Assembly (NCBI GenBank): GCA_030167865.1
Contig: JALAGF010005483.1
Location: 52,806 to 72,805 of the forward strand
Origin: Craspedostauros australis
Taxonomy: Eukaryota
DNA: 20,000 bases
Direction of reading: 5' to 3'
Shown: one piece after another, positions 2,022-16,899 of the stretch
How the letters are laid out: each line of letters starts with the position of its first letter
Position numbering within the stretch: the stretch's first letter is position 1
The notes under the pieces: model-generated
Told to the model about the DNA's origin: nothing
Databases searched by the model: none
Seen by the model: only the letters and a program-made list of their open reading frames with translations
Made by a program: the position numbers and the translations under genes

Positions 2022-4480
2022 AGTGGTTGTGGCTGAGATCGTGGCTGAGATCGGGGTTGTGGTGGCTGGATGGTTGTCCTGATTGTGACCGTCCTCCTGG
2101 TGATTGGCCAGACGCGTGTTTGGAGCGAAGCGAACGATGGTTGAAGGTGGATGGCCGCAGGCGATGCGTTCGTTTCGGTGGGGGCGCTGGCTTTGGAGTG
2201 GTTGTCGGATGGGATCTGCCTCTCGTTGGTGAACTTCTTCGTCCGAACAGACCTCGGATTGTGGGCGGAAATTGTGTCGATCGTATACTACTAGTATAGG
2301 TGTCAGGGTCCCTGATTGTTCCTCTGGAGTTCTCGTGAGAGGTGAGTGAACTGCCTTTGGCGTGAGTGCTGCGTGAATGCCTTCGCTTGTGCGGATCGAT
2401 CGGTGCTGAACTGATTGCTTTTGACGTCTCCTGCCAATGATGACAACTGTTCTGACGCGGTGATCGCTTCTGTGAGCAGCTTGATACTTTGAAATCTGTT
2501 GCTTCGGTGTTGGGTTCTTGTGAATATGAACTGTGCTTCGAAGTGCGCCAGGTTGGAGCTACGGCTACTCGTTGGGATTGTGCTTGTCTCCTTCCTTACA
2601 GAGTGTCTCTGTCTGTCGAGGTTGGGTTGAAGGGTCTGAGGGGTCTGAAGGCTTTGGAGGTGATGCCGACGGAATACTATGCTGTGGAATGCAACTTAGT
2701 GGAATACGAGTATTCGCATGGTGCAAGCAGATCGTGATGAACCAGCCACGCACAAGGAGGTGTGAGAAGAAAAAAGAGAAGAAGCCCCGTGGAGGATGGA
2801 GAGGAGGATGTCTTCGTTGGTACAGCCAGATGGTTGTGCTTTTGGCAGTGTTGTCAACGGCACGAACTGCACCTGATTTGATTGGTTTCTGGTGTTCTGG
2901 GTTTGTGGTATTTTCTAAATTTGTGTGCATTCTTCGCTGTTTCTGCTCCTGTGTCTGATTGGGTGAAGGTGATTGTTCTGCGTATTCGTGGGGCGCGCTG
3001 GCTCTCTGTTGCTTGTGGTCTCGTCTTCATCGCGTCACGCGCAGCCATGTCTCATTCCACCCGTGCTCCTTTTTACGCTCCCTTGTTCGTACGACTCCTT
3101 ACGGTCATTGCGTGTCTGCTTGTCTGTGTGTTTCCGTGTCGCTTCGGCTCTTCTGTCGAGTGCACCGAACATGCCGAATTGGTTCTTCGCTTCCATTTGA
3201 GGTGTGGTGTCACTCCAAGTTTGGCGGTCAAACTTTATCCGGCCCAAGTTCGGTGGGAAGGAAGCGTTCTCCATTTAACGCCGCCGATGTCCGTGATGTC
3301 GCTGCCATCGTGTCATGTCGCGAACTCCACCTGAGAGGCATCACAAAAACAGCCGCCAAGTGCGAATTCGATGCAAAACGGAGTCATCGTCGCCAGTTTG
3401 TTCGTCGAAAGAAGGAGGCGCTTCCCTCTTGACAGCGCGCACGTCGCATCGTGTCACGTTCGGGTAGAGCAAAGGCGACGAGAAGCGCGCACAGAATTCA
3501 AGACTCCTTTCGTCGAAGGGTCTCCTCCGTTCGTGTCAAAAGACACGAACCAGCTGGCTGTCTGTTCGGACAAACTGGGGACGAAATGGTGCCGTCACCA
3601 TTCCTTGAGTTCTCTCGCATTTGGCTTTGGAGCGCGCGTCGAGAGATCCGCAACCCATCGCAACATGAGGGCGAAATGCACCCTCCTTCCTGTTGCGTTG
3701 TGGAGTAATCCAAAACATGTTCTCGCACCGCCATCTGCTGTTGCCTCCTGCCTCACTCACTTCGTTTGTGGCACATGCGGCAACCGACACGAGCTACTCT
3801 ATCCGTTCGACCGAACGAGCACCAGCTTTCCCAGATGGCGAGGCTATCCCGTGCCATCTATTTCGAATTCCGCGGAGGCTTGGGAAGCTCTTTCGAGCTG
3901 CTCCACCTATTATACTAGTACTATCCTCCATTGCATAATAGAATAGTATAGTGGTATGGTATTCGTTGTGAAGTGAATGATAGGAGAATGGTTGGTTGGA
4001 GCACTGATTGCTATGAGCTGCCTATGGTACGGATACAAGCCACGAGTGTGGGTATCTGTATTGCTTGAGATGTTCGTGGGGGAAGGTCGTATTGTACAAA
4101 CTACATTGTGCTCGTGGATAGTCCATGCATGATCGCCAGCCTCTTTGGGATCTTCATCTCTGGCTGTATCCAATCAATCGATGGTACACTCTATCATGCA
4201 TCGCTCCAGACTTCTTGAAGTTCGCACAGTCAAGGCTGATGCACGTGGCGGAGCTTCGCATACTCGGCCTCTCCTGCCAATCTCTGCTACTCGCACGGGC
4301 TCGGCACTCGTACGCCTATGCTTGTTTCTTTGGGCCGATTTCACCAGAATGAAGACAACGTCGGTCGCAATTGTTGCCCAACCTGTTGCCTGCACAGAAT
4401 CGCTCTTCGCGTCAACACCTATTGCTCGGCCTCGCTTCTTCTCGCCTGTTTCCAACCCTTCGGCTCTCCTCAGCTCGTCA

Positions 4481-5508
4481 TCAGAGACAGCAAAGGGGCA
4501 GTATGAAGAGTAGTGGCAGCAGCAAAGGTACCGCAACCATCGACAAGCCGCACGTGCATGGGCTGATCACGACGAAGAACAGGATCAGCCCCAGCACTGA
4601 GCAGCTCACCATGAAGCATCCGCCCCGCAAGCGCCGATGCACGAACACCGTCACCCCGTCATCGTCAAAGATTGAAAGGCATCTATCTTCCTCACCATGT
4701 GTCGTTCCTGCCGGATCCCCCACCGTCAACATCTTGCCCTTGGCGGAGAAATAAACATCCTCCATGGTAATGTAGGGATAGTTCTTCGTCACTTGCTGCC
4801 TCAGCACTCCCATGATTTCGTCTGCATCGGCTGTCTCACACTCCAATGTGCAACAGAGCAGCTACTCGTGATATTCCGTGTGGCATTTGCAGATCCATGG
4901 CAATGGAATGTTGGAATACGAGTACGCACGAAGGATGGAACCGCTCAAAGTCAAGAAGGTCCATTATGATTGTCAGCGGCCATCGTTTGTCCATCGTTGG
5001 CGCGCCGTACATGAAGGGATGCGGCAGCATATCACACGGCGTAATGCATCAAAAGCAATCAAAGCGACATGAGATTGTATGGTACGACAAGAAACAAATG
5101 AATGGTGAGCGCTGGTCCGCAAATGCATTTCGCAAAAGTCACCATTCGCCTCGTTGATGCATCAGATGGAGAATATCACTTTGCCCGTCGACGAGTAGAC
5201 ATCCATAGGGTCGCCGCAAGCGTCACCTCCATCTACCATATTACACTGGCCACCACCATTCTTGGTGCTAGTGTCGTGCGTACCTTGCCATCCCAACACT
5301 TCAGGAAGACGTTCCGCTTCTTCGTCATCTCGCCATTGGTGGCTCCTCCAACACCGTTTGGATCTGCGCTTGGGACAATCTGTTGCGCTCGTATGCGTTC
5401 ACGCCAACCATCTATCGAACAATCAACATCTGCATCCCTGCCCATCATCTCCGTCGCAGTAGGTATGCCATCGTGATCGCTGCACGCTCGATGAACTGTC
5501 GCAGCCAT
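4481..5508 (-). CDS. Ubiquitin-like domain (..RLRGG) fused to a hydrophobic Cys-rich C-terminal tail; 2 exons: 5508-5284 and 4861-4481 (~201 aa)
   Basis: Exon 1 ends NVFLKCWDGK|GTACGC (donor). The acceptor ...GAGTAG|CTG CTC TGT TGC ACA TTG GAG gives the in-frame join NVFLKCWDGK-LLCCTLECETAD...VYFSAKGKML...TVFVHRRLRGG. This aligns by eye with ubiquitin [20 protein letters not shown]...LIFAGKQL...TLHLVLRLRGG. An alternative in-frame upstream ATG lies at 5832. Confidence 0.8.
4862..5283 (-). other. Predicted GT-AG intron (422 nt, phase 0) of the UBL-membrane-tail gene
   Basis: Minus-strand donor AAG|GTACGC at 5283 and acceptor TAG|CTG at 4862. Splicing restores a continuous ubiquitin-like beta1-beta2 hairpin. 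Confidence 0.75.
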
Positions 5509-5897
5509 GTATTTTATGGTGTAATAGTTTGCGTCAGCAGGATGCGAGGGAGAATGGCGGAGAGGATCCTGTACGAGTGTGTCGATGCCAAGATCCTGTT
5601 CGTGATCTTGTGCTTCAACAGGGACTGTGATGCTTCGTCGTCTCGCGTTGGGAGCTGGCGATGCAACCGGAAGCCAGCTGCGGAATGGCGTCCGTTCCCT
5701 GATGATCTGATGGTCTGTTTGGCTGCGATGTGATGCGATGCGATGCAGTGCGATATAATTGTGGTGCGGCGCAACGCGGTCCGATCCTTGTGCAGCTTGT
5801 CGGAACTCGTATCTGATTGCTCTCCTCTGCATTCAAGAGTACATCCATCGGTATGTTCCACGAATCCTTGAATGAAAGCCGAAGGCTTCACAATTAC

Positions 5898-5933
5898 ACC
5901 AACACCAACACCAACACCAACACCAACACCAAC
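5898..5933. repeat. (ACCAAC)6 microsatellite
   Basis: Six perfect hexamer copies read directly. Confidence 0.95.
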
Positions 5934-6187
5934 GATGATCGTATGAACAACGCAACCGTGACCACAACCACAACCACACATACAGAACAGAACACACAAT
6001 CGCGGCTTGGCGATCTTTGGCTGTGTTGGCGCCAAGAAGAACAAGAAACCGAAGGTTGGCAATCCATCACTCCAGCCTCCGTGATTGGCCCAAGAACAAC
6101 ATCTTGGTGCAACCATGACGTCATCGCCGCAGGAATTGTCTCTGCCTCGGACATGTCCGGCTGTCTATCAAAGTTTGCCAGCGAGGC

Positions 6188-6417: not shown

Positions 6418-8274
6418 TTACAACCCCATTCGAGCCATCGCCGCATCCGCAATCTGAGCGCGCTTGTGCTTCTTGACGCAATCGGAGCTGCAAAATTTGA
6501 AGTCATGCAGGAAGAACAGACTCTTGCGCGGTTTGCGGCTGATGTCGCTGTTGCACCAGTGGCATCCAGTTCTGGTTGTACTTCCGACGGTGGACAGTTT
6601 CTGCTTCTGCTTCTCCTCTTCGTCCTTCTTGGCTTTCTCAGCAGCCTCCAACTGTGCCTTGTCGGCGGCCTTCTTCTTCTTTTGGCGCGCTCGCTTCTGC
6701 CTGCGTTTCTCGGCCTCCTTTTCCTTCTTGGCCTGCATGGCGTCTTCCGTGAGGGCCGGTCCTACCTTGGCGTCCTTCCAATCGCAGTACTCTTCGCCGA
6801 GAGTGCCACGGGCCATTCGGAATGCCTCTCTGACCTTATCGTGAGCTGCCAGGAAGTACGGCGGTCGTCCTCGAACGTCGAGAACGCAGGGATCGGCATG
6901 TCCCTTGAGCAACAGCGCTGATACGCACTGCGCTGCGACGGCTTGGTCAATGGCCACGGACTCTGCTGCAAAGTGGAGCGGCGTGCTGAAGTTCTCACCA
7001 GCCTGGATATTGATTTGATCGGCGATGGTGTCAACCATCAACCACTCTAGAATTTTGTCGACATCGCCATCCATGGCTGCTTCGTGCAACGGAGTCAACG
7101 GCACAATCAGGGCCTTCTTCTTCTCCTCCTCTTCCTCGATCTCCTTCTCTTTCGCGTTCTCGGTATCTTTGATGGTTTCCAGTTTGCCACCAACGACTGG
7201 GCCTTGTCCTGCTGCCGCACTATTCGGTGTCACATCAGAGGTGAAATTGGCATCTATTGACCGTGCAGCCATATGCATCATCACATCATGGGTAACGCAT
7301 ACGCTTTCGAATGTCGGCCGGCCGATGTCGAATGGGACCTTGCGGATTCGGTCGTCGTCACGTGTGATGACATCCTTCACAGAATCTGCAAACACCGTGC
7401 TGGTCATGGTCTTGGGACACGAAACCAGCACAAGGCACGCCGACTCGATGTGAGACTTCCAGCTCAGCAGCGTCTCGTGAATATCTTCCTTCAAAGATAT
7501 CTCACCTGCACGCCGCAGCTGCGCTCCCATCGATTTGGCCTTTCGCTTCGAGTTGTCCTGCGCAGACTGGGCCTTGCCCTGCCCCTTGCGGATCGTGTAG
7601 CGTTGGCATGCTCGATGGATGAGACACTTGTCACGCTTGAAGACGCCACCTGCGAACCGTCCGCTACGAATCAGGAGCACCACCACTGTTTGCTGCTGCA
7701 AATTCGCGGACAGCGATCGAAACAACGAGCATTGCTGCGCGATTCCAACGCCAGGCGTCCTCAGCGGCTTTGGAAGCAGTGAGAGCGGCAACACCACCTC
7801 GTTGTCATCGTCGATTGGAAAAGCTGGCGCGTTGGCGGCTGAGAGCTGCTGGTGGATGAGATGCCTATTCTCTGCGACCTTCTTGTTTCTGCCTGGCTTC
7901 TGCTGCTTCTGTTTGTGCGCCTGTGCTTGTTTTCGATGGGGCTTGTGCTTTGAACTCTCATTCTGTTGCTCGTCTTGTCTCCGTGCGTCATTGGCGACGC
8001 TGTCACTGCTTTCGACGCGACTGCCATCAGCAGCACCTTCACCTTCGTCCCCTGACGACAGACCAGAGTCGTCTTCGCTGTCGTCGCTTTGCGAGTCAAT
8101 CGCACTCTCATCCTCGGAAGATGACGTGTCTGCATCATGGTGGTAGACCCTGCCTGGGACGGCATATTGCTGACTCTTCACTAGCTCATCATGGTTGCTT
8201 TGGACCCTTTTCTCGGCCTGCTCCAGCAGCTTCAGTGCCTCGCTGGTGTACAGTAGATGCGTCTCCATCGTCAT
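6418..8274 (-). CDS. VMS1: Vms1/ANKZF1-family VLRF1 ribosome-quality-control peptidyl-tRNA release factor (tRNA endonuclease) with ankyrin repeats, coiled coil, treble-clef Zn finger and VIM
   Basis: VLRF1 motifs 'VLLIRSGRFAGGVF...IHRACQRYTIRKGQGKAQSAQDNSKRKAKSMGAQLRRAGE' (compare yeast Vms1 YTTRRKQGGSQS..D...ANSAGSALRRYNE). Ankyrin motifs TPLHEAA, TPLHFAA and GRPPYFLA. K/E-rich coil. CxxC...FCSSDC treble clef. C-terminal R-x5-AA-x2-R (RAQIADAAMAR) matches the VCP/p97-interacting motif. The first ATG is at 8274; the ORF track starts at a GTG (8280). Confidence 0.92.
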   Translation of the reverse strand: MTMETHLLYTSEALKLLEQAEKRVQSNHDELVKSQQYAVPGRVYHHDADTSSSEDESAIDSQSDDSEDDSGLSSGDEGEGAADGSRVESSDSVANDARRQDEQQNESSKHKPHRKQAQAHKQKQQKPGRNKKVAENRHLIHQQLSAANAPAFPIDDDNEVVLPLSLLPKPLRTPGVGIAQQCSLFRSLSANLQQQTVVVLLIRSGRFAGGVFKRDKCLIHRACQRYTIRKGQGKAQSAQDNSKRKAKSMGAQLRRAGEISLKEDIHETLLSWKSHIESACLVLVSCPKTMTSTVFADSVKDVITRDDDRIRKVPFDIGRPTFESVCVTHDVMMHMAARSIDANFTSDVTPNSAAAGQGPVVGGKLETIKDTENAKEKEIEEEEEKKKALIVPLTPLHEAAMDGDVDKILEWLMVDTIADQINIQAGENFSTPLHFAAESVAIDQAVAAQCVSALLLKGHADPCVLDVRGRPPYFLAAHDKVREAFRMARGTLGEEYCDWKDAKVGPALTEDAMQAKKEKEAEKRRQKRARQKKKKAADKAQLEAAEKAKKDEEEKQKQKLSTVGSTTRTGCHWCNSDISRKPRKSLFFLHDFKFCSSDCVKKHKRAQIADAAMARMGL

Positions 8275-9384
8275 TCTCACTGTTGTTGCCGTTGTTGTTG
8301 TTCTTCTTCTCGCTATCGTACGACTACAAGGAATCCGATCGTGTTCTTGTTGGTTTGCTGAGTGTATGAACCTTGAATTTGTGATCGTTGTTGGTTTGTT
8401 GCTCTTGGCCGCTGTTGCGGGTAGGTACGATACGATTGTTTCATTCTGTTTGTGTCATTTGTGTTGCGGCCACGAACGTGTGGTGGTGATTCACAACATG
8501 GCACCGTTGCCGTCTCTCTTTGCTGTTCGTTTCGATTCTTGGAACGTCTGAATAGTGCACGAATGGGAAAGTGCAGTACACGACTGGAATGTGATCGAAT
8601 GGGTCTCACGCGCAACGGCCTGGGATAGTGGTAGGTACGAAGCTAGATAGATGTCGTGGAAACACGATCGGTTGTGTTTGAGATTGATACAACTATCATC
8701 GTGAAGTACGAGTTGCGAGTACGACCAACGCGCATGAGCTACAATCAAGAGTGAATAGATCGTACGCATGCAAGGCATCACCAGTTGGCAGATCTTGATG
8801 TGAGTGGTGGTGATTGATTGCCGATGATTGCCAGTAAGAGAGAGTCGGTGAGGAGCAGAAGTAGATCGTACCCATCGAAGTGTAGGTAAGTATGCACTTC
8901 GCGGCTGGCAGAAGTGAAGTGGCTCTTGTTCATATAATTAGTCGTCCTTGCAGGTCGTACTGGTGGTCATTGTAGCCAAGAGGAAGGATTGGATCATGGA
9001 TCTGACAGAAGTGAAGGATGCCTGCCTTTGCACGAACCGCTCTTCACTGTTCCCAAGTCGGGACCGTTCGGACAGAACAGGAAAAAGGAATCGTGGATCT
9101 CGGAAATACCTGGTACGACTCGGAAGGATGAGCACATCACACTTCGCTCCCTCCGCACCTTACCCGTTCTCTGTTTGTGCTGAGGCAGATTTCTTCCTGC
9201 GATCAAAGTTCAGCATCTGAGATCCAGCACCGGATGGGAGGTGATACTCACAAGTGCGTGCAGACACAGGACGGACGGGGCAGATATCATAGTATACTTT
9301 GAGAACAGGAACACAAAGCAGCATCACCGCGACCAAACGAGACAGCATCGAAACTTTGTCATACCCACCAGTGTGACACCGTGC

Positions 9385-14698: not shown

Positions 14699-16899
14699 AT
14701 GAAGCTCAATCTCTCCCTCTTCCTCACTGCCATGTGCATGTCCACCAGCACAGCCTTCTTGGGACCCGCAAGCGTGGCCTCTGCCTCCACTGGAAAGGCC
14801 GCAGCATCGACCACCAACCTGGGAGCCACGGTCGAGAAGACTGCTTCCTCCGGCTTGGTGCCTCCCAAGACGATGGCAGAGCTGGCAGGTGAGGAATGCC
14901 AGAACGTCTACACCTCCAACGTCCAAGCCACATACGGGTAAGCCATTCACGTTCTCTTCGTATCCCTATCATGCGTATGGCACGAGTGCGTACTAGTAAT
15001 AATACTAGCACTCCTGTCATCAGATAGACATGGTAGGCTATGCCACGAATGTGCACTTGCGTGTATGGTACTAGTGCGCGCAAGTCAATCAACAGCAACA
15101 GCAACAGCAAGGATGTTGAGGCAGCCTTACAGACTGCCTTCCAACGCGCCATGCCATACACGCGAACACTTCCTTCTCAATCACGTCTCTTCTTGTCATC
15201 CATTGGTTCATCCATTGGCTCATCCATTCGTTCATCCATTCGTTCTTTCTTTTCATCTCACTTTACCTTCGTTTCGACTTGTTTCATCTATTGCATTCAC
15301 TTCTTTTTTGCATTGGATGCGGTGCAATCTCAACACGATCGATGGCGGCAACAATACTTCTCTGCTCCGTACTCACATGCATCCCATTGAGACAACCACT
15401 GTGACTCCAACGACGACCGTCACTATCACCATTCTCATTCCCATAACAGTCGTTACCCGCTCACAATCCAGTCCGGAAAGGGATCCTACCTCACCACCAC
15501 CGACGGCAAGCAATTCTTGGACTGCGTCAGTGGTATCGCCACCTGCGCCTTGGGCCATGCCAACGACAAGTTGACGGAGGCCGTCACCGAGCAGATGAAC
15601 TCCGTGCATCATGTTTCCAACCTGTACTTCATCCCGCAGCAGGCAGCGCTCGCCAACTGGCTGTGCGAAAACTCGGATGCTGAGAAGGCGTTCTTTTGCA
15701 ATTCCGGTGCCGAGTCCAACGAAGCTGCCATCAAGCTGGCACGTCGCCACGCTTCCAATCGTGGAATCACGGTGAGTGCGCATTGCATTAATTTGCATTG
15801 GGGCCTGAGTGGAGCGGAGCTGAGTTGAATGGAATTGAATGAAATGAATCGAATTGCATTGAGTTTGATTGGCAATGTGACCATGGATGATGTCGTCGTG
15901 TGGAATGGGAACATATTCAATGCTCTCTCACATTCTACTCAACGAAACACCGGTACAAATGGAATCTCATTATCATCGTCACTACCATCGGTGCACTTGA
16001 ACCGCCTTGAACCATTGCACGATACGTGCGTTTATGATCAACAGAAACCAGTCATCATCACAGCCGAGAAGTCATTCCACGGAAGAACATTGGCCGCGCT
16101 GAGCGCCACTGGACAGGCGAAGTATCATCAGGGATTCGGATATGACGGAGAAATGGTCAAGGGCTTCGACTATTGCACATACAATGACATCGCCAGTTTG
16201 GAGGCGGCCGTCAAGCGTGCCACCTCCGATGGGCAGGGATTGGCGGCCATCATGCTGGAGCCGCTGCAAGGCGAGGGTGGAATTGTTCCCGGCGATGTCG
16301 AGTTCTTCCAAAAGGCTCGTGAGATCTGCGATGCTAACAACGCGCTCCTGATGATCGACGAGGTGCAGGTCGGCATGGGACGTTCTGGAACTCTGTGGGG
16401 GCACCAGCAATTGGGCATCGTCCCAGACGTCTTCACCAGCGCCAAGGCGTTGGGCGGAGGTGTGCCGATCGGTGCCATGATGGCCCGCGGAGAAGCTGCG
16501 ACCACGTTCGGTCCAGGCGATCACGCCAGCACCTATGGTGGCAATCCGTTGGCATGCGCGGCCGGTTTGGCCGTCGCGCAGTACATCTGCGACAATGACA
16601 TCCTCACCAACGTCGAGGCACGTGGCAAGCAACTCACAGCTGGTCTCGTGGCGTTGTCCGAGAAATACCCAACCATTTTGGGTGAGGTCCGCGGATGGGG
16701 TCTCCTTCAGGGAGTGGAGTGCATCGCCGAAGGCATGGGTCCAGGGGATTTGGTCGGTGAGGCCATGAAGGAAGGACTGCTGCTGGTTCCAGCCGGCACC
16801 AACGTCGTCCGATTCGTCCCACCGTTGATTATCACGGAATCCGAAATCGATGAGGCGCTGTCCAGATTCGAGAAGGCCATCATCGCCGTGAGCTCATAA
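14699..16899 (+). CDS. argD: Acetylornithine aminotransferase (class III PLP-dependent), probably plastid-targeted; 3 exons: 14699-14937, 15450-15771, 16045-16899 (~471 aa)
   Basis: Spliced product ...NVQATYG|RYPLTIQSGKGSYL..DGKQFLDCVSGIATCALGH..HVSNLY..FFCNSGAESNEAAIKLAR..GIT|KPVIITAEKSFHGRT..EPLQGEGG..DEVQVGMGRSG..SAKALGGGVPIGA..HASTYGGNP..VRFVPPL. Canonical splice sites. The N-terminus MKLNLSLFLTAMCMSTSTA-FL resembles a signal peptide with an ASAFAP-type cleavage. Confidence 0.95.
14938..15449 (+). other. argD intron 1 (512 nt, phase 2)
   Basis: GG|GTAAGC donor and AACAG|T acceptor. The join restores the conserved TYGRYP motif. Confidence 0.9.
15196..15243. repeat. 12-bp minisatellite (TCATCCATTSGY)x4 inside argD intron 1
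   Basis: tcatccattggt tcatccattggc tcatccattcgt tcatccattcgt. Confidence 0.9.
15772..16044 (+). other. argD intron 2 (273 nt, phase 0)
   Basis: ACG|GTGAGT donor and AACAG|AAA acceptor. An in-frame TGA at 15826-15828 means it must be removed. Confidence 0.9.

What the first reader, a model, noticed from the sequence alone, without database searches (positions are those of the whole stretch)
4481..5508. Hidden spliced gene: ubiquitin-like domain with intact RLRGG fused to a 45-aa hydrophobic Cys-rich membrane peptide
Seen: splicing 5283-4862 joins two unremarkable ORF fragments into a ubiquitin-like sequence ending HRRLRGG (LRGG at 4630-4619). It is followed directly by CFMVSCSVLGLILFFVVISPCTCGLSMVAVPLLLPLLFILPLCCL-stop: two hydrophobic stretches separated by a CTCG turn, 6 Cys and no charged residue. 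Established: Ub/UBL fusions (Ub-ribosomal proteins, FUBI-eS30, Sde2) are cleaved after GG by deubiquitinase-type proteases, while membrane-anchored MUB/UBL3 proteins lack the di-Gly and use a CaaX tail. Inference: this protein matches neither class. It could be a membrane-tethered precursor whose cleavage frees a new conjugatable modifier and/or a small membrane hairpin peptide starting with Cys, which could be acylated or act as an N-degron. I do not recognise this architecture as characterised.
Basis: partly seen in the sequence, partly recalled or inferred. Interest (0 to 1): 0.85.

Follow-up and report, generated by a model that had tools for sequence, protein, structure and literature searches.

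The report
Ubiquitin-like protein fused to membrane micro-peptide
This is a real, spliced and transcribed diatom gene for a ubiquitin-like domain joined at its Gly-Gly end to a very conserved 45-residue, cysteine-rich membrane hairpin, and it belongs to an undescribed algal and oomycete family that probably uses ubiquitin as a removable carrier to make a tiny membrane protein.

Summary
On the minus strand, exon 1 (5508-5284) and exon 2 (4861-4481) are joined across a 422-nt GT..AG intron. A public transcript ORF of 201 aa equals the predicted joined protein letter for letter. One contig of a public run bridges 4861|5284 with no mismatch.

The N-terminal part is a true ubiquitin homologue. A family profile aligns to ubiquitin residues 2-76, RGG on RGG. 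The AlphaFold model has a beta-grasp whose best Foldseek matches are ubiquitin, SUMO and ISG15. The tail has 45 aa, no charged residue, 6 Cys and 4 Pro, and is modelled as a helical hairpin.

New here: this is a large family. Of 183 tail-bearing proteins, 181 have GG directly before the tail's first Cys, and none lacks a ubiquitin-like part. Named members come from diatoms, Triparma, Nannochloropsis, an oomycete, a cryptophyte and dinoflagellates. In Symbiodiniaceae the same tail follows canonical ubiquitin.

The tail is far better conserved than the UBL, 59% against 27%. My best reading is a cleavable ubiquitin/UBL-fusion precursor of a membrane micro-protein. Cleavage is inferred, not shown. 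No Pfam family or paper was found for the tail.

The parts
5284..5508 (-). Exon 1 coding part. Met1-Lys75 of the 201-aa form: a variable N-terminal extension (residues 1-63) plus beta-strand 1 of the UBL (NVFLKCWDGK).
   Evidence: Translation. Identical to residues 1-75 of transcript ORF P0003. AF2 strand E64-70.
4862..5283 (-). Intron, 422 nt, GT..AG, phase 0, between beta-strands 1 and 2 of the UBL.
   Evidence: A contig of run X1 skips exactly 4862-5283. P0003 reads across the junction. Splice-site letters.
4619..4861 (-). Exon 2, UBL part. Residues 76-156: beta 2 to beta 5 of the beta-grasp, ending HRRLRGG. LRGG lies at 4630-4619.
   Evidence: Family profile aligns to ubiquitin 2-76. AF2 and Foldseek beta-grasp. 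Column map to ubiquitin.
4484..4618 (-). 45-aa tail, residues 157-201. Helix 1 is CFMVSCSVLGLILFFVVIS, the turn is PCTCG (CTCG at 4558-4547), helix 2 is LSMVAVPLLLPLLFILPLCCL.
   Evidence: 0 charged residues, 6 Cys, Kyte-Doolittle 19-aa window means 1.7-2.6. AF2 helices H156-174 and H181-199. Conservation.
4481..4483 (-). Stop codon TGA.
5509..5842 (-). Transcribed 5' region. It holds an upstream in-frame ATG at 5832-5830, which would give a 309-aa form (P0173).
   Evidence: The contig reaches 5842. P0173 sequence. ATG list.
4300..4480 (-). 3' untranslated region. The transcript contig runs on beyond the stretch that was laid.
   Evidence: the contig covers 4300-4861 and continues past 4300.

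Best explanation
The gene encodes a precursor in which a ubiquitin-derived domain is fused, through its Gly-Gly end, to a 45-residue two-helix membrane micro-protein.

The most likely course has three steps:
1. The soluble UBL is translated first. It acts as an in-cis carrier that lets a peptide too short and too greasy to be made alone be translated, kept soluble and delivered to a membrane after translation.
2. The hairpin inserts with both ends on the cytosolic side.
3. A deubiquitinase-type protease cuts after Gly156. This frees the UBL (in dinoflagellates, plain ubiquitin) and a 45-aa peptide that starts with Cys.

The conserved, selected product is the peptide. The UBL is a dispensable-in-sequence helper, as FUBI is for eS30.

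Shown here: the splice, the transcript, homology to ubiquitin, the beta-grasp plus hairpin model, and the family-wide invariance of GG-C and of tail length.

Inferred: cleavage, topology, the chaperone role, and what the peptide does. One guess is a small structural or regulatory membrane subunit with a CxC turn on the far side of the membrane and acylatable Cys at both cytosolic ends.
For: 1. GG is kept in 124 of 124 aligned members and directly precedes the tail's Cys in 181 of 183 tail-bearing proteins. The rest of the UBL drifts to about 27% identity. The positions of ubiquitin R72 (98 of 124) and R74 (91 R plus 15 K of 124) are also kept.

2. In Symbiodiniaceae and another dinoflagellate the same tail follows canonical ubiquitin (P0163, P0167, P0243). 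In a cryptophyte it follows a domain with 45 of 76 residues identical to ubiquitin (P0229). By established knowledge (recalled), linear fusions after ubiquitin G76 are cleaved by cellular deubiquitinases.

3. The tail is the constrained part. It is 45 aa long in 78 of 85 complete tails. Mean pairwise identity is 59% against 27% for the UBL, and the tail is the higher of the two in 7611 of 7626 pairs.

4. The tail never stands alone and never follows another domain. The only precomputed Pfam families shown among the 120 listed longer hits (of 168) are PF00240 and PF11976. All 23 short hits carry the end of a UBL plus GG.

5. Precedents, from paper listings and abstracts only: Ub-eL40 needs its ubiquitin for productive expression (PMC6721733), and FUBI-eS30 is cut by USP36 (PMC8354635).
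Against: - No data on the protein itself. Nothing here shows cleavage or membrane insertion.
- The surface that most deubiquitinases grip is not kept in the stramenopile members. At the L8 position the residues are P, L, V or W. At I44 they are V, I, T, M, S or E (the window has S). At V70 they are S, Q, G or H.
- The L73 position is Q or N in 63 of 124 members, and the R74 position is Pro in 6 of 124. Generic enzymes may therefore not cut the diatom proteins.
- One member has AG-C instead of GG-C (P0076).
- GG could also be kept simply as a flexible hinge before a membrane helix.
- The K48 position is kept in 113 of 124 members. The carrier reading does not explain this.
- Hydrophobic segments have a higher chance identity than soluble domains, so the 59% against 27% contrast overstates the difference somewhat.
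Confidence: 0.5

Rival explanations
1. An uncleaved, hairpin-anchored ubiquitin-like protein. The tail is a permanent membrane anchor that displays the UBL on the cytosolic face. There the UBL recruits a partner such as an E2, a proteasome receptor or Cdc48, as MUB/UBL3, HERP/Usa1 or TMUB1/Dsc3 do.
For: - The architecture is a UBL followed by a C-terminal double hydrophobic segment.
- The deubiquitinase-binding patch is poorly kept in diatom members, which could make them resistant to cleavage.
- The K48-equivalent Lys is kept in 113 of 124 members. This could be a site of modification on a displayed domain.
Against: - Anchored UBLs of known families have lost the di-Gly (recalled). Here it is invariant, in 124 of 124 members.
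- A displayed recruiting domain should keep a binding surface, yet the UBL averages 27% identity.
- The canonical-ubiquitin versions in dinoflagellates would be expected to be cut.
- No Pfam match to the HERP, DUF2407 or MUB type families was found. Only ubiquitin-type families turned up, such as PF00240, PF11976, PF14560 and PF00789.
Confidence: 0.25
2. A membrane-parked pro-modifier. The UBL is held at a membrane until a regulated cut after GG releases it for conjugation to targets, as TUGUL is released from TUG.
For: - The tail of the window's protein is exactly RLRGG.
- R72, R74 and GG are kept across the family.
- TUG and Sde2 show that internal UBL-GG sites can be cut on cue (PMC9556833 and PMC5131917, listing and abstract only).
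Against: - A modifier with its own activating and conjugating enzymes should keep its surfaces. This one does not.
- Many members carry long, variable insertions inside the UBL.
- The part under the strongest constraint is the tail, not the UBL.
Confidence: 0.12
3. Self-processing at Gly-Cys. The first Cys of the tail attacks the Gly156 carbonyl (an N-to-S acyl shift), giving a thioester that transfers the UBL or the peptide without a protease, as in Hedgehog or intein (Hint) domains that also begin GG|CF.
For: - GGCF is nearly invariant. C is 78 of 78 and F is 75 of 78 at tail positions 1 and 2.
- The representative search also pulled out a ubiquitin-repeat protein, P0164. In it RLRGG is followed by CFLPSALITLKDG..., which looks like a Hint-type domain. 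That name is recalled, not tested.
Against: - The tail is 45 hydrophobic residues modelled as two helices. It is far too small and of the wrong kind for a Hint fold.
- No Hint family was matched in Pfam.
Confidence: 0.03

Closest known systems
Ubiquitin-ribosomal protein fusions (Ub-eL40 / UBA52, Ub-eS31 / RPS27A)
   Same: A single N-terminal ubiquitin is joined at G76 directly to a short C-terminal extension protein. Dinoflagellate members of this family carry canonical ubiquitin in that position. The ubiquitin serves as a helper for making a small partner (PMC6721733, abstract only).
   Different: The partner here is a 45-aa uncharged Cys-rich membrane hairpin, not a basic zinc-binding ribosomal protein. 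The family is patchy (stramenopiles, cryptophyte, dinoflagellates among named records), not universal. In diatoms the ubiquitin part has diverged strongly.
FUBI-eS30 (FAU)
   Same: A diverged ubiquitin-like domain that kept its C-terminal GG, is fused to a small partner, and is removed by a deubiquitinase (PMC8354635 and PMC10611586, abstracts only). This is the best analogy for the diatom proteins.
   Different: The partner is a ribosomal protein and the fusion is restricted to holozoans. Cleavage is shown for FUBI and not for this family.
MUB / UBL3 membrane-anchored ubiquitin-fold proteins
   Same: A ubiquitin fold held at a membrane by its C-terminus.
   Different: MUBs lack the di-Gly and are anchored by a prenylated CaaX box (recalled). 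Here GG is invariant and the anchor is a 45-aa hairpin. The window ends LCCL with no Cys at position -4, and only 11 of 85 tails have a Cys there.
HERP/Usa1 and TMUB1/Dsc3 (UBL plus membrane hairpin proteins of ER/Golgi ubiquitin-ligase complexes)
   Same: An N-terminal UBL and C-terminal hydrophobic hairpin or hairpins facing the cytosol (recalled).
   Different: Those proteins are much larger, have linkers between the UBL and the membrane part, and have no di-Gly at the junction. No Pfam match to their families was found among the 124 members.
Algal ubiquitin fusions described in PMC6332867 (Ub-NiSOD, Ub-'integral membrane protein')
   Same: Lineage-patchy ubiquitin fusions found largely in algae with complex plastids. 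One of them has a membrane protein as partner.
   Different: The 'IMP' partner there is similar to bacterial integral membrane proteins at E<=1e-10 and was analysed over 155 alignment sites. Its ubiquitin sits at the N-terminus, the C-terminus or internally (passages read). It is not a 45-aa Cys-rich tail. The passages shown for my search terms did not describe such a tail. The supplementary PDF could not be read.
TUG/ASPSCR1 and Sde2 (UBLs cut internally after GG)
   Same: A UBL-GG site inside a longer protein is cut by a USP-type enzyme to give two functional products (PMC9556833 and PMC5131917, abstracts only).
   Different: Their partners are large soluble proteins. There is no membrane hairpin, and no family-wide fixed 45-aa partner.

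Membership tests
Ubiquitin family (beta-grasp, PF00240) | Sequence homology to ubiquitin over the whole domain. | tested here: met
   The 17-sequence family profile hits single ubiquitin chains at E 1.6e-6 to 1.6e-5, aligning profile positions 17-98 to ubiquitin 2-76. 50 of 124 members pass PF00240 at E<=0.01. The window's own protein alone matches no Pfam family.
Ubiquitin family (beta-grasp, PF00240) | Beta-grasp fold. | tested here: met
   The AF2 model has beta-beta-alpha-beta-beta-alpha-beta with pLDDT 82-93 in the core blocks. Foldseek against the PDB gave 219 matches at E<=1e-3, the best being ubiquitin, SUMO and ISG15 at probability 1.00 and target TM about 0.7.
Ubiquitin/UBL C-terminal-extension fusion precursors (Ub-eL40, Ub-eS31, FUBI-eS30) | An N-terminal Ub/UBL whose C-terminal GG abuts the partner with no linker. 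| tested here: met
   RLRGG|C in the window. GG-C is direct in 181 of 183 tail-bearing proteins. The GG aligns to ubiquitin G75-G76.
Ubiquitin/UBL C-terminal-extension fusion precursors (Ub-eL40, Ub-eS31, FUBI-eS30) | The precursor is cleaved after GG by a deubiquitinase. | not testable with these tools
   This needs protein-level data. It is only inferred from GG invariance and from the canonical-ubiquitin members.
Ubiquitin/UBL C-terminal-extension fusion precursors (Ub-eL40, Ub-eS31, FUBI-eS30) | The partner is a ribosomal protein. | tested here: not met
   The tail is uncharged and hydrophobic with no Pfam match. It fits the architectural class, not those families.
MUB / UBL3 | A C-terminal CaaX prenylation box and no di-Gly. 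| tested here: not met
   The window ends LCCL, with Cys at -3 and -2 and not at -4. 11 of 85 tails have Cys at -4. GG is present in all members.
CYSTM cysteine-rich tail-anchored module (family and accession recalled) | A match to the family model. | tested here: not met
   No Pfam family at E<=10 for exon 2 including the tail. No such family among the 124 members at E<=0.01.
Hedgehog/intein Hint domains (GG|CF autoprocessing) | A Hint fold of about 130-150 aa after the Gly-Cys junction. | tested here: not met
   Only 45 residues follow, modelled as two helices. No Hint family was matched in Pfam.
Plastid-targeted ubiquitin (SELMA sUb / PUBL) | An N-terminal signal or bipartite targeting peptide. 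| tested here: not met
   No 19-aa window with mean hydropathy above 1.6 lies before residue 162 of the 201-aa form. This is a simple hydropathy test, not a dedicated predictor. The family description is from PMC5487736 (listing and abstract only).

The most novel reading that the evidence does not exclude
An old, undescribed third kind of ubiquitin extension protein, shared by stramenopiles, cryptophytes and dinoflagellates. It would be a natural version of the 'ubiquitin fusion technique'. Its purpose would be to expose an N-terminal Cys on a 45-aa membrane hairpin.

That Cys is invariant, in 124 of 124 members. It would then be either fatty-acylated, giving a doubly anchored lipopeptide, or oxidised and arginylated, so that the amount of the micro-protein tracks oxygen or nitric oxide through the Cys branch of the N-degron pathway.

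The CxC turn on the far side of the membrane could bind a metal or form disulfide-linked oligomers.
Probability: 0.15. Interest if true: 0.85.

Novelty: new variant of a known kind. Interest (0 to 1): 0.62.

Why it matters
As far as I recall, textbooks list only two near-universal ubiquitin fusion partners, both ribosomal proteins, plus a few lineage-specific ones.

A fixed-length, Cys-rich membrane hairpin that always sits directly behind a ubiquitin-type Gly-Gly would be a new class of partner. It occurs in several major groups of marine primary producers and in oomycetes.

It would also be a natural case of ubiquitin used as a carrier for a membrane micro-protein. Small membrane proteins of this size are routinely missed by gene finders. 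Here the coding sequence is split by an intron, and exon 2 has no start codon of its own.

The family gives a direct experimental handle on three questions:
- how cells make and insert very short hydrophobic peptides;
- whether diverged UBLs keep dedicated proteases;
- what an N-terminal Cys produced by a deubiquitinase does.

Tried and rejected
- **Pfam and PDB with the window's protein alone.** Pfam on exon 2 and exon 1 gave nothing except a sub-threshold DUF6810 match (E 0.024, 15 bits against a cut-off of 25) on exon 1. Single-sequence phmmer against the PDB gave only peroxiredoxin-5 noise at E 0.13-0.18. Homology to ubiquitin became visible only with a family profile.
- **Whole genome.** None is held for this window, so paralogues in the same genome could not be looked for.
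- **ESM Atlas** on residues 150-201 gave no usable hit.
- **Earlier findings of this scan.** Nothing by sequence, words or place.
- **Rfam** on the whole window gave 0 matches at gathering score, so there is no known RNA in the intron.
- **Sequencing runs.** No RNA holder is listed as such. The one holder, X1, is 'RNA?' by guess, and two further runs of the same study held next to none of the words.
- **Stand-alone tail or tail behind another domain.** Not found among the 120 hits listed (of 168) in the longer search or among the 23 short hits. The longer search scored only the 8000 candidates that shared the most words. One protein, P0072, joins a bacterial IclR-type N-terminus to the tail. 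I take this for an assembly chimera.
- **Literature.** Eight full-text searches found no description of a ubiquitin or UBL fused to such a tail. Four gene identifiers of named homologues occur in no held paper. The library lacks most subscription journals.
- **PMC6332867** was checked through passages. Its Ub-membrane-protein fusion is a different, bacterial-like partner. Its supplementary PDF could not be read.
- **Complex or oligomer prediction** of the tail was considered and not run, because I make no binding claim.
- **'Not a real gene'** was rejected on the transcript evidence and the conservation.
Full report
**1. The observation**

- An ATG at 5508 opens 75 codons that end ...NVFLKCWDGK at 5284.
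- The next letters are GTACGC. The stretch 5283-4862 (422 nt) ends ...GAGTAG.
- The frame continues at 4861 with LLCCTLECE... through HRRLRGG (LRGG at 4630-4619).
- It then runs through 45 further residues to TGA at 4483-4481.
- The 45 residues hold no charged residue, 6 Cys and 4 Pro. Their hydropathy over 19-aa windows is 1.7-2.6 throughout.

**2. The splice is real**
- A search of about 5.8 billion proteins with exon 2 alone returned a transcript ORF of 201 aa, P0003. It is 100% identical over the query. Its sequence is exactly exon 1 plus exon 2.
- One 1564-nt contig of a public run (X1, kind guessed as RNA) lies on 5842-5284 and 4861-4300. It skips exactly 422 nt with CT..AC ends on the + strand and has no other differing letter.
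- A sister record in the same 90% cluster, P0173, has 309 aa. Its source names it as an uncharacterised protein of Craspedostauros australis. It starts at an upstream in-frame ATG at 5832.
- The extra 108 residues look like a translated leader, and relatives have short N-termini. The start is nevertheless not settled.
- Several metagenomic ORFs of relatives begin with ...Q directly before the TFCL that follows DGK or EGK in full-length transcripts. Compare P0009, P0010, P0012 and P0015 with P0011, P0016 and P0179. I read this as a CAG acceptor at the same place, which would mean a conserved intron position. That is inference only.

**3. The N-terminal domain is a ubiquitin homologue**
- Alone, the window's protein matches no Pfam family. 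It finds only noise in the PDB.
- A profile of 17 family members finds ubiquitin end to end. Profile positions 17-98 align to ubiquitin 2-76, with the family's RGG on ubiquitin's RGG. Single ubiquitin chains score E 1.6e-6 to 1.6e-5.
- 50 of 124 family members pass PF00240 at E<=0.01.
- The AlphaFold2 model (17-row alignment, mean pLDDT 71.8, core blocks 82-93) has strands 64-70, 76-82, 111-115, 118-120 and 146-151 and helices 88-102 and 135-141. Two further helices, 156-174 and 181-199, make up the tail.
- Foldseek against the PDB gives 219 matches at E<=1e-3. The best are ubiquitin variants, SUMO-2/3 and ISG15, at probability 1.00 and target TM-score about 0.7.

**4. It is a family, and the tail defines it**
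- The profile search of 1.84 billion representatives gave 1037 hits at E<=1e-3. In the top 150, proteins that carry the tail are mixed with polyubiquitins.
- Two more searches used an alignment of 14 tails (A2). They gave 168 hits among proteins of 103-2000 aa and 23 among proteins of 30-102 aa.
- Of the 261 proteins then held, 183 carry the tail's xCGxS landmark near the C-terminus.
  - 181 have GG directly before the tail's first Cys.
  - P0165 has an insertion inside the tail, with RGGC further up.
  - P0076 has AG-C.
  - All have at least 25 residues of UBL before the GG.
- The only precomputed Pfam families shown for the 120 listed longer hits are PF00240 and PF11976.
- Complete tails are 45 aa long in 78 of 85 cases, 46 aa in 6 and 42 aa in 1.
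- In the 124-sequence alignment A3 the invariant positions are G155, G156, C157, C179, G180, S182, P191, L196, P197 and L201.
- At least 90% conserved are K118, F158, S161, T178, L183, P187, L189 and L193.
- Mean pairwise identity is 59% in the tail and 27% in the UBL. The tail is the higher in 7611 of 7626 pairs. Hydrophobic composition inflates the tail figure somewhat.

**5. Who has it**

Records that carry a source name come from these groups:
- diatoms: Craspedostauros, Cylindrotheca fusiformis and C. closterium, Amphora coffeaeformis, Mayamaea pseudoterrestris, Fistulifera solaris, Synedropsis;
- the bolidophyte Triparma verrucosa;
- Nannochloropsis oceanica and N. gaditana;
- the oomycete Lagenidium giganteum;
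- the cryptophyte Hemiselmis andersenii;
- dinoflagellates: Effrenium voratum, Fugacium kawagutii, Symbiodinium pilosum, Durusdinium trenchii, Cladocopium, and an unnamed dinoflagellate.

Most hits are unnamed metagenomic or transcript records, so the range is a lower bound. Databases call them 'hypothetical' or 'Ubiquitin-like domain-containing protein'.

**6. The key comparison**
- In the dinoflagellates the N-terminal 76 residues read as canonical ubiquitin (my reading of the printed sequence; no call compared them with a reference). They are followed at once by CCWFFSF...PCTCGTS...LPCFCL (P0163, P0167, P0243).
- In the cryptophyte type 45 of 76 residues equal ubiquitin (P0229).
- In stramenopiles the domain has drifted so far that a pairwise alignment of the window's UBL with ubiquitin is barely detectable (score 33).
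- Mapped onto ubiquitin numbering, the family keeps G47 (90 of 124), K48 (113), L50 (106), T66 (98), R72 (98), R74 (91, plus 15 K) and G75-G76 (124).
- It does not keep the L8, I44 and V70 patch. L73 is L in only 27 of 124 members.
- The window's protein is one of the minority with an exact RLRGG.

**7. How it most likely works**

The pattern has three elements: a partner of fixed length, always glued to a ubiquitin-type GG; canonical ubiquitin in some lineages; and a free-drifting UBL in others.
- This is the pattern of the ubiquitin extension proteins and of FUBI-eS30. In those, the ubiquitin part is a removable helper for making a small partner (PMC6721733 and PMC8354635, abstracts only).
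- I therefore read the gene as a precursor. The UBL carries a 45-aa hairpin peptide through translation and post-translational membrane insertion.
- A deubiquitinase-type enzyme then cuts after Gly156, leaving a micro-protein that begins with Cys.
- With two helices, both ends would face the cytosol, where such an enzyme can reach the junction. The CTCG turn would face the other side. Cys157 and Cys199/200 would sit at the cytosolic interface, where S-acylation is common (recalled).
- All of this is inference. Nothing here shows the protein, its cleavage or its location.

Against it:
- The loss of the I44 patch and of L73 in most stramenopile members means that generic enzymes may not cut them.
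- The conserved K48 position is unexplained.

I put this reading at 0.5. The rivals are an uncleaved anchored UBL at 0.25, a regulated pro-modifier at 0.12 and self-processing at Gly-Cys at 0.03.

**8. Comparison with what is known**
- By architecture it belongs with the ubiquitin/UBL C-terminal-extension fusions: the GG abuts the partner, and this was tested and met. The partner is new.
- It is not a MUB/UBL3. There is no CaaX in the window, only 11 of 85 tails have a Cys at -4, and the di-Gly is present.
- It is not a Hint-type autoprocessing protein, because the tail is too short and helical.
- It does not match CYSTM or any other Pfam family.
- It is not a plastid-targeted ubiquitin, since there is no N-terminal hydrophobic segment.
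- The survey of algal ubiquitin fusions (PMC6332867; passages read) describes Ub-NiSOD and a bacterial-like integral membrane partner, not this tail. Its supplementary PDF was not readable here.
- Eight full-text searches found no description.

**9. Verdict**

Its family is wider and more regular than could be seen from one window. It is a new variant of a known kind, a ubiquitin-fusion precursor with a membrane micro-protein as partner. Its biochemistry is entirely untested.

Interest is 0.62: a clear, conserved, easily testable oddity in the ubiquitin system of major algal groups, but without functional data.

Noticed in passing
window 6421-8454 (-): The gene next upstream on the same strand encodes a Vms1/ANKZF1-like protein. 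Pfam gives VLRF1 release-factor domain at E 2e-41, ankyrin repeats, and a VATC treble clef below its cut-off. It is a ribosome-quality-control / Cdc48-linked factor lying beside a ubiquitin-like gene. In a eukaryote this adjacency is probably coincidence.
   Followed up: partly
window 5830-5832 and 5844-5850 (-): Upstream ATGs lie in the transcribed leader. The one at 5832 is in frame and gives the 309-aa form P0173. The one at 5848 opens a 77-codon ORF in another frame. The real start and any upstream-ORF control are open.
   Followed up: partly
window about 5890-5945 (-): A (GGTGTT)n microsatellite lies just upstream of the 5' end of the transcript contig.
   Followed up: no
window 15829-16896 (+): Class-III aminotransferase (PF00202, E 4e-81). 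The match begins at profile position 114, so earlier exons must lie upstream.
   Followed up: no
P0164 (992 aa, representative search hit): A ubiquitin-repeat protein in which RLRGG is followed by CFLPSALITLKDG.... This looks like an intein/Hedgehog-type autoprocessing domain placed between ubiquitin units. It shares the GG|CF junction but is otherwise unrelated to the tail. The domain name is recalled, not tested.
   Followed up: no
P0072 (206 aa): A bacterial IclR-type regulator N-terminus joined to the last strand of a UBL plus the tail. It is most likely a chimeric assembly.
   Followed up: partly
P0034, P0068, P0228, P0226, P0037 and others: Many diatom members carry a long insertion between helix 1 and strand 3 of the UBL. 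It contains a hydrophobic or aromatic stretch (for example ...SLLWLSSLLHAW...) that the window's protein lacks. The window's protein instead has a 13-residue insertion after strand 4.
   Followed up: no
P0044 (1039 aa): A protein with six ubiquitin repeats. Its last RLRGG is followed by a different Cys-first hydrophobic extension (CGIFCVMMVEIEIIFCCYIV...). Cys-first hydrophobic ends after ubiquitin may be more widespread than this family.
   Followed up: no
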